Below, piece after piece: positions 59,599-61,601 of a stretch of 64,000 nucleotides of DNA. The stretch lies in assembly GCF_055900595.2 (NCBI RefSeq), contig NZ_CM148325.1; one strand, given 5' to 3'. The notes beneath the pieces are model-generated. The model worked only from the letters and a program-made list of their open reading frames with translations, did not search any database and had not been told where the DNA came from. Within the stretch, counting starts at the first letter, position 1. Each line of letters opens with the position of its first letter. The position numbers and the translations under genes were made by a program.

Positions 59599-60249
59599 AT
59601 GACCCGCACACTCAAGCCGTTAATTCTTAACACCGGCGCACTGGCGCTAACGTTAATCCTGATTTATACCGGCATTTCGGCCCATGACAAACTCACCTGG
59701 CTGATGGAAGTGACGCCGGTGATTATTGTCGTGCCGCTACTGCTTGCCACCGCCAGACGTTACCCGTTAACGCCGCTGCTCTATACGCTCATTTTCTTTC
59801 ATGCCATCATCCTGATGGTCGGCGGACAATACACCTACGCGAAAGTCCCCGTTGGTTTTGACGTGCAAGAATGGCTGGGATTGAGCCGTAATCCGTATGA
59901 CAAGCTGGGGCATTTTTTCCAGGGGCTGGTGCCTGCACTGGTGGCGCGAGAAATTCTCGTTCGCGGGATGTACGTGCGCGGACGTAAAATGGTGGCGTTT
60001 CTGGTCTGCTGCGTGGCGCTGGCGATAAGCGCGATGTATGAATTAATCGAGTGGTGGGCAGCGCTGGCAATGGGTCAGGGAGCGGATGATTTTCTCGGTA
60101 CCCAAGGCGACCAATGGGACACACAATCCGATATGTTCTGCGCGCTACTTGGTGCATTAACGACGGTGATGTTCCTCGCTCGCTTTCATTACCGCCAGCT
60201 ACGGCGCTTTGGCTTAATCACCAGAGCGCCGGAAGCGATTACCTCTTAA
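59599..60249 (+). CDS. yjdF: Inner-membrane protein YjdF (3' end altered relative to K-12)
   Basis: 216 aa, MTRTLKPLILNTGALALTLILIYTGISAHDKLTWLMEVTPVIIVVPLLLATARRY...; stop overlaps the melA stop. Confidence 0.8.
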   Translation: MTRTLKPLILNTGALALTLILIYTGISAHDKLTWLMEVTPVIIVVPLLLATARRYPLTPLLYTLIFFHAIILMVGGQYTYAKVPVGFDVQEWLGLSRNPYDKLGHFFQGLVPALVAREILVRGMYVRGRKMVAFLVCCVALAISAMYELIEWWAALAMGQGADDFLGTQGDQWDTQSDMFCALLGALTTVMFLARFHYRQLRRFGLITRAPEAITS

Positions 60250-61601
60250 CGGTGCAACCAGCCTGGCAGCCAGTCGCCGTGGGCGGCAATCAGGTCGTCA
60301 ACAAGAGCATATATTTCGTCAATGCCCAGCACGGCGGCAGTATGCGGGTCCATCATCGCGGCGTGGTAAACACGGTCGCGATTTTCCGTAAGAATGGCTT
60401 CGGTCAGCAGCGTCTGTACGTTGATGTTGGTTTGCATCAGGGCGGCCAGATGCGAAGGTAGCGTACCGACTTTGGTCGGCTGAATGCCATTAGCATCAAC
60501 TAAACAGGCCACTTCCACGCAACATCCTTGTGGCAGGTTATCAATCAAACCATCGTTACGGACGTTGCCGTAAATCACACTCGGCTCGCCAGTCCAGATA
60601 GCGTTCATGATTGTGCTGGCATATTCCCGTGACGGTTTAATATCAATCCGGGAGGCGTTCTTATACTCCTCCAGCTCTTTATGCCAGTTTGCCAATTGTT
60701 CGACGCAGCGTTTCGGGTACTCATCCAGCGGCACTTTATAACGCTCAATCAAATCCTCACGACCTGGCTTAATAAACCACGGCGTGTACTCAGCAAAATG
60801 TTCTGACGATTCCGTGACGAAGTAGCCCAGCTTTTTGAACATTTCATAGCGCACAATATTCTGGCAGCGAGTATTGCCATGAATATTCGGCTTCGGTGCC
60901 TGCCCTGCTTCATAAGCCGCCAGCAGTTCCGGGTAGAGATTCACGTAACTGCCGTCGGCGGTTTTGCGCTCCAGTTCCAGGTAAAACGCCATATGGTTGA
61001 TACCTGCGCAACGGTAACGCAGCGTAGCCGGGTCGATATTGAGGTCACGCGCCAGCTCTTCCGCCGTTCCCTGCACCGAATGGCACAGCCCTACCTGTTT
61101 GATATGCGGATAACGGGCATACATCGCCCAGGTATTCATCGCCATTGGGTTAACATAGTTGAGCATGGTGGCATCGGGGCAGATTTCCGTCATGTCCTCG
61201 CAAATTTGCCACAGGTGAGGAATGGTACGTAGCGCGCGCATAATACCGCCCGGCCCCAGCGTATCGGCAATGGTTTGTTCCAGACCGTGGCGCTTACAGA
61301 CCTCAAAATCAGTCACCGTGCAAGGTTCATAACCGCCAATCTGAAATGCCACTACGACAAAATCGGCATCCTGTAAGGCTTCTTTCTGTTGGGTGTGGCA
61401 GGTGATTTTGCCACTGGCCCCTGCTGAATCCATCAGCTTGCGCACCACAATATGCGACTCTTCCAGGCGGGTGGGATCAATGTCCATCAGGGCAATATGC
61501 GCCGTTTTCAGCGCCTCGCGATGGAACACATCACCAAGAATATTTTTAACGAAAATCGTCGAACCAGCGCCGATAAATGTAATTTTGGGTGCAGACATCA
61601 T
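60246..61601 (-). CDS. melA: Alpha-galactosidase MelA
   Basis: 451 aa, MMSAPKITFIGAGSTIFVKNILGDVFHREALKTAHIALMDIDPTRLEESH... ending ...DWLPGWLHR. Confidence 0.9.
   Translation of the reverse strand: MMSAPKITFIGAGSTIFVKNILGDVFHREALKTAHIALMDIDPTRLEESHIVVRKLMDSAGASGKITCHTQQKEALQDADFVVVAFQIGGYEPCTVTDFEVCKRHGLEQTIADTLGPGGIMRALRTIPHLWQICEDMTEICPDATMLNYVNPMAMNTWAMYARYPHIKQVGLCHSVQGTAEELARDLNIDPATLRYRCAGINHMAFYLELERKTADGSYVNLYPELLAAYEAGQAPKPNIHGNTRCQNIVRYEMFKKLGYFVTESSEHFAEYTPWFIKPGREDLIERYKVPLDEYPKRCVEQLANWHKELEEYKNASRIDIKPSREYASTIMNAIWTGEPSVIYGNVRNDGLIDNLPQGCCVEVACLVDANGIQPTKVGTLPSHLAALMQTNINVQTLLTEAILTENRDRVYHAAMMDPHTAAVLGIDEIYALVDDLIAAHGDWLPGWLHR

What the first reader, a model, noticed from the sequence alone, without database searches (positions are those of the whole stretch)
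60200..60300. melB appears to be missing: melA and yjdF converge with overlapping stop codons
In E. coli K-12 the order is melR / melA-melB / yjdF (convergent) / fumB, as I recall it. Here the yjdF stop (60247-60249) and the melA stop (60246-60248, minus strand) overlap, with no melibiose permease gene and no intergenic DNA between them. YjdF is 216 aa rather than the ~209 aa I remember, consistent with a deletion junction inside its 3' end. This predicts a melibiose-transport-negative phenotype despite intact melA and melR.
Basis: partly seen in the sequence, partly recalled or inferred. Interest (0 to 1): 0.45.

Follow-up and report, generated by a model that had tools for sequence, protein, structure and literature searches.

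The report
Common, ancient melB deletion allele
The melibiose permease gene melB really is missing between melA and yjdF, but this is an old, already reported deletion carried by about a quarter of E. coli and by sister Escherichia species, and at least one strain with it still ferments melibiose.

Summary
yjdF (59599-60249, +, 216 aa) and melA (60246-61601, -, 451 aa) converge and share the tetranucleotide TTAA (60246-60249) as overlapping stop codons. No melB is present anywhere in the window.

It is a deletion. Compared with K-12, 1665 nt are replaced by 20 nt, which are a remnant of the melA-melB spacer hairpin. The yjdF stop codon is lost, so YjdF gains a 7-residue tail.

It is not a private event. 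The same contiguous junction occurs in 1263 of 5426 complete E. coli genomes, exactly complementary to the 4136 that carry melB. It also occurs in E. whittamii and two other Escherichia species. E. albertii keeps a remnant of it.

Touchon et al. (2009) already listed melB as specifically absent from phylogroup B2.

The predicted melibiose-negative phenotype is not supported. ATCC 25922 has this junction and is melibiose-positive. LacY also transports melibiose. melA and melR are under strong purifying selection in melB-less lineages (melA dN/dS about 0.01-0.03).

One side observation may be new. melB itself is almost invariant across E. coli, while its flanking genes are diverse, which suggests the melB-containing segment spread recently by recombination.

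Verdict: real, ordinary, already known. Low interest.

The parts
59599..60249 (+). yjdF (DUF2238 inner-membrane protein), 216-aa deletion-fusion form. Residues 1-208 are orthologous to K-12 YjdF. Codon 209 is AGA (Arg) where K-12 has GGA (Gly).
   Evidence: ORF; NF007369 match over residues 1-208 of a 209-position profile; comparison of C-termini across loci.
60226..60245 (.). 20-nt remnant of the melA-melB intergenic spacer (GCGCCGGAAGCGATTACCTC). It corresponds to the loop and the melB-proximal arm (TTCCGGCGC on the melA strand) of the hairpin that follows melA in all melB+ genera examined. Read on the + strand, it encodes most of the new YjdF tail, APEAITS.
   Evidence: Exact 9-mer GCGCCGGAA shared with the K-12 spacer, 35-43 nt from the melA stop; spacer comparison across K-12, Citrobacter, Kluyvera and the melB-less alleles.
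60246..60249 (.). TTAA: the overlapping stop codons of melA (complement of 60246-60248) and yjdF (60247-60249).
60203..60232 (.). Hairpin created across the deletion junction: CGGCGCTTTGG / 8-nt loop / CCAGAGCGCCG. It pairs yjdF coding sequence with the surviving spacer arm. It is not followed by a U-tract on either strand, so it is not a canonical terminator.
   Evidence: It is present in the MFE and centroid folds of both strands, with whole-fragment z-scores of -2.0 and -2.5. No terminator-like site was found at the junction.
60246..61601 (-). melA, an intact GH4 alpha-galactosidase (451 aa, 99.3% identical to K-12 MelA). It is now the only gene of the mel operon.
   Evidence: dN/dS is 0.012-0.03 across melB-less lineages.
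61602..61883 (.). melA-melR divergent regulatory region. It is the same length as in K-12 (282 nt) and nearly identical, including the inverted repeat CCCATAAACTCAGATC...GATCTGAGTTTATGGG.
   Evidence: Alignment A1.
61884..62792 (+). melR, an intact AraC-family activator of the mel promoter (302 aa, 99.3% identical to K-12 MelR).
   Evidence: dN/dS is 0.02-0.13.

Best explanation
This is the widespread melB-deletion allele of the Escherichia mel locus, not a new lesion. In an ancestor that had the order fumB-yjdF / melB-melA / melR, about 1.65 kb was lost. The lost DNA comprised the yjdF stop codon, the REP-containing yjdF-melB spacer, all of melB and most of the melA-melB spacer. A further 24 nt next to the melA stop are also missing relative to K-12.

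The yjdF reading frame now runs through 20 nt of leftover spacer and ends at a TAA that overlaps the melA stop. This gives a 216-aa YjdF with a poorly conserved 7-residue tail.

Shown: the allele is inherited as a lineage marker in about 23% of complete E. coli genomes, and it occurs in several other Escherichia species.

Inferred: melA remains a MelR-activated, melibiose-inducible, single-gene operon, and alpha-galactosides enter through another galactoside permease, most plausibly LacY. Cells with a working lac operon would therefore remain melibiose-positive. melA and yjdF transcripts probably read into each other, because no terminator remains between them.
For: Anatomy:
- Homology to K-12 runs to window position 60225 on the yjdF side and resumes at 60246 on the melA side. 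K-12 has 1665 nt where the window has 20 nt.
- The 20 nt retain the arm TTCCGGCGC of the hairpin that follows melA in K-12, Citrobacter and Kluyvera.

Direction of change:
- YjdF of other genera is 201-211 aa. Those of C. amalonaticus (...QLIAG*) and S. arizonae (...QLIG*) end like K-12 (...GLITG*).
- melB sits between yjdF and melA in Citrobacter portucalensis, C. braakii, C. amalonaticus and Kluyvera.

Frequency:
- The junction is contiguous in 1263 of 5426 complete E. coli genomes.
- melB is present in 4136 genomes.
- 1263 + 4136 = 5399, which is exactly the number of genomes with melA.

Other species:
- The same 216-aa YjdF with overlapping stops occurs in Escherichia sp. E1V33, in 'E. coli' SCPM-O-B-8794 (the representative of a separate GTDB species) and in E. 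whittamii. Their flanking genes differ from E. coli at species level: melA is 92-95% identical at the nucleotide level, with dS 0.26-0.42.
- E. albertii keeps the 216-aa yjdF plus about 34 nt of the melA 3' end, followed by adiA.

Literature: Touchon et al. 2009, Table 5, lists melB among genes specifically absent in group B2 strains.

Function:
- melA dN/dS is 0.012-0.03 and melR 0.02-0.13 among melB-less lineages.
- The regulatory region is intact.
- ATCC 25922 has the junction and is MEL+ and ONPG+.
- The standard melibiose-transport null host, DW2, is melA+ delta-melB delta-lacZY.
Against: - The surviving spacer remnant is short: an exact 9-mer plus a looser match. I estimate the chance of such a 9-mer in the 1.7-kb K-12 segment at about 1%, but it is still a small footprint.
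- No clear microhomology is visible at the breakpoints with present-day sequences, so the deletion mechanism is unknown.
- E. fergusonii, named E. marmotae and E. ruysiae, and the E. coli species representative did not appear among the 56 loci of the genome-contig scan, so the age of the deletion rests on five Escherichia species genomes.
- Spread of the allele between species by recombination, rather than vertical descent, cannot be excluded.
- LacY-dependence of melibiose use in melB-less strains was not tested directly. The lac operon of the source genome lies outside the window, so this strain's own phenotype is unknown.
- That ATCC 25922 lacks melB elsewhere in its genome is inferred from the complementary genome counts, not from a whole-genome search.
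Confidence: 0.9

Rival explanations
1. A recent, strain-private deletion of melB in the sequenced isolate, giving a melibiose-transport-negative mutant. This is the reading implied by the first stage.
For: Relative to K-12 the gene is missing and yjdF is altered at its 3' end.
Against: The identical junction is present in 1263 complete E. coli genomes whose flanks are 95.6-100% identical to the window, and in three other Escherichia species. The junction sequence itself has diverged between them, so it is old. The B2-wide absence of melB was published in 2009. ATCC 25922, which has this allele, is MEL+.
Confidence: 0.01
2. melB was never present at this site in this lineage. On this view the yjdF-216/melA overlap is the primitive arrangement, and K-12-type strains gained melB by insertion.
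For: Four of the five non-coli Escherichia species genomes recovered lack melB. melB in E. coli is almost invariant: 4127 of 4136 copies are >=99% identical to K-12, and dS is 0.012-0.03 against 0.07-0.21 in the flanks, as expected for a recent arrival.
Against: The melB-less allele still carries a piece of the melA-melB spacer hairpin. Citrobacter and Kluyvera have melB at the same position with the same spacer architecture. Outgroup YjdF ends like the 209-aa K-12 form, not like the 216-aa form. E. coli MelB is about 84% identical to Citrobacter and Kluyvera MelB, in line with YjdF (about 85%), so it is not a recent import from another genus.
Confidence: 0.03
3. The deletion is ancient, as in the best explanation, but within E. 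coli the melB-less state is the ancestral one. The melB+ segment of K-12-like strains would then be a young haplotype that was re-introduced and spread by homologous recombination through the conserved flanks.
For: Relative to K-12, 99.8% of melB copies are >=99% identical, while at most 2926 melA and 1637 yjdF copies (counted over all genomes, not only the 4136 melB+ ones) reach that level. Strain e1-39 and Escherichia sp. MOD1-EC7003 have flanks 94-97% identical to K-12 but a melB segment 99-100% identical. Between K-12 and MOD1-EC7003, melB dS is 0.015, against fumB 0.21, yjdF 0.13 and melA 0.13. Flanking-gene similarity does not sort by melB state. The melB-less junction is shared with sister species.
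Against: Only four melB+ haplotypes were analysed at the codon level. A selective sweep or a low local mutation rate could also lower melB diversity. No donor lineage was identified. No rooted phylogeny of the genomes was built. Phylogroup assignments of the 1263 genomes were not made.
Confidence: 0.3
4. An assembly or sequencing artefact collapsed the region.
For: None specific.
Against: The same junction, base for base, is found in eight independent complete genomes (100% identity in Z0117EC0005) and, with substitutions, in more than 1200 others. All flanking reading frames are intact.
Confidence: 0.005

Closest known systems
Phylogroup-B2-specific absence of melB in E. coli (Touchon et al. 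2009, PLoS Genet 5:e1000344, Table 5)
   Same: It is the same gene loss at the same locus. Genomes that I recognise from my own knowledge as B2 were checked here (APEC O1:K1:H7 E16002, ATCC 25922, NC101, an O25b:H4-ST131 strain) and show the same melA/yjdF overlap or its signature.
   Different: The window's allele is only about 96% identical to the B2-type alleles across the junction. Its nearest complete genome at this locus (Z0117EC0005, 100% identity) carries arpA. By the Clermont typing scheme (my own knowledge) that places it outside B2, so the allele is not confined to B2. The paper lists the gene only; it does not describe the junction, its age or its phenotype.
K-12 melR / melAB locus (reference arrangement)
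   Same: melR, the divergent regulatory region and melA are orthologous and intact (99.3% protein identity).
   Different: There is no melB, no REP element and no melAB terminator. yjdF is 7 codons longer and abuts melA.
E. albertii, and E. albertii-like loci in 12 genomes labelled E. coli (for example LB858871)
   Same: They have the same 216-aa yjdF and the same junction with the last ~34 nt of melA.
   Different: A second deletion removed the rest of melA and melR, so yjdF is followed by adiA. The whole mel system is gone.
Independent melB loss in Citrobacter (C. youngae, Citrobacter spp. Cu233, wls619 and MGH106)
   Same: melB is lost while melA and melR stay intact next to yjdF.
   Different: The junction is different. 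yjdF keeps its 210-aa form, its stop codon and its terminator hairpin, and a spacer of about 57-67 nt separates it from melA. It is a separate event.

Membership tests
Escherichia melB-deletion allele (yjdF-216 / melA overlapping stops) | Contiguous yjdF-melA junction with overlapping stop codons, colinear with other carriers. | tested here: met
   A 1301-nt query centred on the junction aligns in one piece in 1263 of 5426 genomes (100% identity in Z0117EC0005). The same structure is seen in L004-L006.
Escherichia melB-deletion allele (yjdF-216 / melA overlapping stops) | Absence of melB from the locus and from the rest of the genome. | tested here: inconclusive
   There is no MelB homologue in the 64-kb window. 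Across complete genomes, junction carriers (1263) and melB carriers (4136) sum exactly to the melA carriers (5399). The rest of the source genome cannot be seen.
Escherichia melB-deletion allele (yjdF-216 / melA overlapping stops) | A remnant of the melA-melB spacer lies between yjdF codon 209 and the melA stop. | tested here: met
   GCGCCGGAA and the following bases at 60226-60245 match the hairpin arm and loop of the K-12, Citrobacter and Kluyvera spacers.
K-12-type melAB operon | melB (Na+/melibiose symporter gene) immediately downstream of melA. | tested here: not met
K-12-type melAB operon | Divergent melR and a conserved melR-melA regulatory region. | tested here: met
   The 282-nt intergenic region is nearly identical to K-12. 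MelR matches NF007693 at 636 bits, cut-off 253. Promoter activity was not tested.
MelA, GH4 alpha-galactosidase (NCBIfam NF011657) | Full-length match above the curated cut-off. | tested here: met
   735 bits against a cut-off of 486, over residues 4-450; 99.3% identical to K-12 MelA.
YjdF (NCBIfam NF007369, DUF2238) | Full-length, end-to-end match to the 209-position equivalog profile. | tested here: met
   462 bits against a cut-off of 353. Residues 1-208 match profile positions 1-208 of 209, and residues 209-216 are an extra, non-homologous tail.
Melibiose-negative phenotype caused by melB loss | Carriers of the allele fail to ferment melibiose. | tested here: not met
   ATCC 25922 carries the allele and is MEL+ on API 20E. 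The phenotype of the source strain itself cannot be tested with these tools.

The most novel reading that the evidence does not exclude
Within E. coli the melB-less arrangement may be the older state. The melB-containing segment of K-12, O157 and most other strains would then be a young, nearly monomorphic haplotype that has been moving by homologous recombination through the conserved yjdF and melA flanks, even into a separate Escherichia species (MOD1-EC7003). On this reading the two alleles are a long-lived presence/absence polymorphism shared across Escherichia species. It would be tolerated because LacY makes MelB partly redundant, and the 'reference' state would be the derived one.
Probability: 0.3. 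Interest if true: 0.4.

Novelty: already known. Interest (0 to 1): 0.15.

Why it matters
The main value is as a caution. Comparing a genome with K-12 makes a normal, lineage-typical allele look like a fresh lesion, and gene absence alone gave the wrong phenotype prediction.

For annotation and metabolic modelling of E. coli, three points follow:
- melB absence is a standard allele, present in about 23% of complete genomes.
- The 216-aa YjdF is its normal by-product.
- Melibiose use should be scored on melA plus any galactoside permease (MelB or LacY), not on melB alone.

The contrast between an old deletion junction and a nearly invariant melB is a small but clean example of a core-locus presence/absence polymorphism maintained and moved by recombination.

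Tried and rejected
1. Full-text searches combining melB or melibiose with phylogroup, ST131 or ExPEC terms returned mostly false hits, because 'melb' matched 'Melbourne'. Only a whole-word search led to Touchon 2009.

2. I tried to name the cryptic-clade loci so as to use the E. marmotae phenotype table, in which the ONPG- type strain is MEL- and the ONPG+ German isolates are MEL+. NCBI taxonomy, an exact-protein look-up and the paper's supplements did not say whether L004 or L005 is E. marmotae. That correlation is therefore left as a hint only.

3. I assumed the whole window was colinear with the nearest genome, Z0117EC0005. and a BLAST comparison showed this holds only from about 41.8 kb onwards, so the annotation was not used for the left part of the window.

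4. I searched for a complete genome with the same cadC::IS1 insertion in order to identify the source strain and its lacY state. None was found.

5. Strain HH97 first looked like a divergent melB allele (53-78% identity to K-12). Its ORFs there are T-rich nonsense, so it was set aside as a degraded or mis-assembled region.

6. The terminator scan and RNA folds at the junction gave a junction hairpin but no canonical terminator. No functional claim is made from them.

7. The match between '75% of E. coli are melibiose-positive' and '76% of genomes are melB+' is tempting. I rejected it as an explanation because melB-less ATCC 25922 is MEL+.
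Full report
**1. The observation**

- The window has an ORF at 59599..60249 (+, 216 aa) and an ORF at 60246..61601 (-, 451 aa).
- The sequence ...ATTACCTCTTAACGGTGCAACC... places TAA at 60247-60249 on the + strand and TAA on the - strand at 60248-60246. The two stop codons therefore overlap inside TTAA, with no spacer.
- NCBIfam identifies the proteins as YjdF, MelA alpha-galactosidase and, further on (61884..62792), MelR. All three score above the curated cut-offs. YjdF matches only through residue 208 of a 209-position profile.
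- tblastn with K-12 MelB finds nothing in the window.

**2. What the K-12-type locus looks like, and where the difference lies**

- In a K-12-derived genome the order is fumB, yjdF (209 aa), a REP-like element, melB (-), a 102-nt spacer, melA (-), melR (+), adiA.
- Homology between the window and K-12 runs through ...GGC TTA ATC ACC AGA (K-12: ...GGC TTG ATA ACC GGA TAA). It stops at window position 60225.
- Homology resumes exactly at the melA stop, window position 60246.
- K-12 has 1665 nt where the window has 20 nt (GCGCCGGAAGCGATTACCTC).
- The 20 nt are not random. GCGCCGGAA is an exact match to the K-12 melA-melB spacer.
- Read on the melA strand, the melB-less alleles carry TAA-GGGGTAATCGC-TTCCGGCGC. 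That is the loop and the distal arm of the hairpin that follows the melA stop in K-12, in four melB+ Citrobacter and in Kluyvera.
- The arm next to the melA stop, plus about 17 nt, is also missing relative to K-12.
- The left breakpoint lies between yjdF codon 209 and its stop codon. The frame therefore reads on through the remnant (APEAITS) to a TAA that happens to overlap the melA stop.

**3. Direction of change**

A genome-contig scan with the window's YjdF returned 56 loci. I annotated them by tblastn and by extending reading frames.

- YjdF of other genera is 201-211 aa.
- C. amalonaticus S646 (...QLIAG*) and S. enterica subsp. arizonae (...QLIG*) end like K-12 (...GLITG*), not like the 216-aa form.
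- melB lies between yjdF and melA in C. portucalensis, C. braakii, C. amalonaticus S646, Citrobacter sp. On2M, two Kluyvera species and an unnamed Enterobacteriaceae genome. Their MelB is about 82-85% identical to K-12 MelB, similar to YjdF (about 85%).
- Together with the spacer remnant, this shows that the melB-containing arrangement is primitive for the family and that the window's arrangement is a deletion.

**4. How common, and how old**

*Frequency in E. coli*
- A 1301-nt query centred on the junction aligns in one piece in 1263 of 5426 complete E. coli genomes. In the others it splits at exactly the melA stop.
- K-12 melB is found in 4136 genomes, and melA in 5399.
- 1263 + 4136 = 5399, so the two states are complementary. 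Junction carriers do not keep melB elsewhere.
- Carriers include APEC O1:K1:H7, strain E41-1, an O166:H15 strain, a bovine strain, NC101 and ATCC 25922. An O25b:H4-ST131 strain shows the signature yjdF match ending at nt 624.
- Eight genomes are >=99% identical to the window at this locus. The best, Z0117EC0005, is annotated with the same 216-aa YjdF. It carries arpA and yjaA, which by the Clermont scheme (my own knowledge) is not a B2 profile.

*Other Escherichia species*
- Each genome in this collection represents a separate GTDB species.
- Escherichia sp. E1V33, 'E. coli' SCPM-O-B-8794 and E. whittamii have the same junction. Their tails read RAPEATTP, RAPEAITP and RAPEAITP.
- Their flanks differ from E. 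coli at species level: melA and melR are 92-95% identical at the nucleotide level, and melA dS is 0.26-0.42.
- E. albertii, and E. albertii-like loci in 12 genomes labelled E. coli (for example LB858871), keep the 216-aa yjdF and about 34 nt of the melA 3' end, about 88% identical to the window. adiA then follows directly.
- The junction has itself accumulated substitutions in proportion to species divergence. The deletion is therefore old. It either predates the radiation of these species or has crossed between them.

**5. Prior knowledge**

- Touchon et al. (2009, PLoS Genet 5:e1000344), Table 5, lists 'melB, melibiose permease' among functions specifically absent in group B2 strains.
- RefSeq annotation already carries the 216-aa protein.
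- The finding is therefore already known in substance.
- Possibly not spelled out before: the junction anatomy, its presence outside B2 and in sister species, and the recurrent, independent loss of melB with retention of melA-melR in Citrobacter. That loss is seen in C. youngae and Citrobacter spp. Cu233, wls619 and MGH106. There yjdF keeps its own stop and terminator hairpin.

**6. Function and phenotype**

- melA (99.3% identical to K-12 MelA), melR (99.3%) and the 282-nt regulatory region are intact.
- Across melB-less lineages, melA has dN/dS of 0.012-0.03 at dS up to 0.42, and melR has dN/dS of 0.02-0.13. Both genes have been kept functional for a long time without melB.
- ATCC 25922 has melR, melA (2342194-2343549) and yjdF (2343546-2344188, frameshifted) with the same 4-nt overlap.
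- In Table S2 of PMC11546641, ATCC 25922 is ONPG+ and MEL+ on API 20E.
- PMC6091025 states that both LacY and MelB transport melibiose.
- The standard transport-null host, DW2, is melA+ delta-melB delta-lacZY.
- The most likely mechanism, which is inferred, is uptake by LacY (or another galactoside permease), MelR-dependent induction of melA, and hydrolysis by MelA.
- The prediction 'transport-negative despite intact melA and melR' is not supported as a general consequence. It could still hold in this strain if its lac operon is defective, which the window cannot show.
- No terminator-like site lies at the junction; the three weak candidates in the scanned 2.6 kb are no more than chance. A stable hairpin (60203-60232) forms across the junction but lacks a U-tract. 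Convergent read-through between melA and yjdF is therefore likely but untested.
- The YjdF tail varies (RAPEAITS, RAPEATTP, RAPEVFNL, RAPEALNL), and yjdF is a pseudogene in ATCC 25922. There is no sign that the tail has a function.

**7. A side result on history**

*Diversity relative to K-12*
- 4127 of 4136 melB copies are >=99% identical.
- Only 2926 of 5399 melA copies and 1637 of 5413 yjdF copies reach that level.

*Mosaic structure*
- In strain e1-39 and in Escherichia sp. MOD1-EC7003 the flanks are 94-97% identical to K-12, but the melB segment is 99-100% identical.
- melB dS among four haplotypes is 0.012-0.03. This compares with 0.07-0.21 for the fumB 3' end, 0.11-0.21 for yjdF and 0.03-0.13 for melA.
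- Flank similarity does not sort by melB state. For example, K-12 yjdF is 98.4% identical to a melB-less O166:H15 strain and 94.2% to melB-less APEC O1.

*Reading*
- This fits recent spread of the melB-containing segment by homologous recombination, possibly onto an ancestrally melB-less E. coli background.
- The evidence rests on a few haplotypes and on identity bands, and no rooted genome phylogeny was built. I give it about 0.3 probability.

**8. Verdict**

- The feature is real and correctly described. It is a deletion.
- It is a common, ancient, previously reported allele, not an event in this strain.
- It does not by itself predict a melibiose-negative phenotype.
- Novelty: already known. 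Interest: low (0.15).

Noticed in passing
window 1-41812: The left two-thirds of the window is not core chromosome. It is a mosaic genomic island that ends at a 23-nt copy of the 3' end of tRNA-Phe (pheU; 41790-41812) just upstream of cadC. It encodes a 1274-aa autotransporter (1118-4942, -), an AbgT-family transporter, a phosphoethanolamine-transferase-like protein, a UgpB-like binding protein, a PTS/ManNAc-6-P-epimerase/MurR module, IS2 and IS3-family transposases, and YeeP-like and DUF4942 genes. ARAGORN finds no intact tRNA in the window, so the intact pheU and the integrase end lie beyond position 1. Positions 20000-24000 are 100% identical to chicken isolate GPEC389, but this segment is found in only 657 of 5426 genomes.
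   Followed up: partly
window 43153-43920 (cadC 42443-44758): cadC is interrupted by a 768-bp IS1 (InsA/InsB ORFs at 43208-43905) flanked by a 9-bp target duplication. cadB and cadA downstream look intact. This predicts loss of acid-inducible lysine decarboxylase expression, as described for enteroinvasive E. coli and Shigella (my own knowledge). No complete E. coli genome in the collection shows the same insertion in one aligned piece.
   Followed up: partly
L001 1977-3500 compared with L007, L066 and L067: melB and its two spacers are almost invariant across E. coli (99.8% of copies are >=99% identical to K-12; dS 0.012-0.03), while the adjacent yjdF, fumB and melA are 4-10 times more diverse at synonymous sites. 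The same young melB segment sits in a different Escherichia species (MOD1-EC7003).
   Followed up: partly
L010, L011, L013, L016 (Citrobacter) compared with L015, L017, L018, L020: melB has been lost independently in several Citrobacter species while melA and melR stay intact. The junction is different: yjdF keeps its stop and its terminator hairpin. C. werkmanii and one C. amalonaticus genome lack the whole mel cluster.
   Followed up: partly
L003 (NZ_CM142823.1, strain LB858871) 4000-4900: Twelve genomes labelled E. coli have a yjdF only 80-90% identical to other E. coli. In LB858871, the one of the twelve that was examined, yjdF is followed by a melA 3' remnant and then adiA, exactly as in E. 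albertii, and its AdiA is 99.3% identical to that of E. albertii. These genomes are either mislabelled E. albertii or carry an imported segment.
   Followed up: partly
L068 (NZ_CP116409.1, strain HH97) 1560-3200: The melB interval has the right length but is only 53-78% identical to K-12. It has many small indels and T-rich nonsense ORFs, and no CDS is annotated there, while both flanks are 98-99.5% identical to K-12. It looks like a locally corrupted assembly or heavily damaged sequence.
   Followed up: partly
L070 and L071 (NZ_CP009072.1, ATCC 25922): In this ATCC 25922 assembly, kgtP is joined through an rRNA operon to murI, whereas in K-12 these genes flank rrnG and rrnB respectively. This implies a large rrn-mediated inversion across the origin, or a mis-join in the assembly. 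yjdF is frameshifted in this strain.
   Followed up: no
window 60203-60232: The deletion created a GC-rich 11-bp hairpin by bringing the surviving spacer arm (GCGCCG) next to a complementary stretch of yjdF coding sequence (CGGCGC). It is predicted on both strands but has no U-tract.
   Followed up: partly
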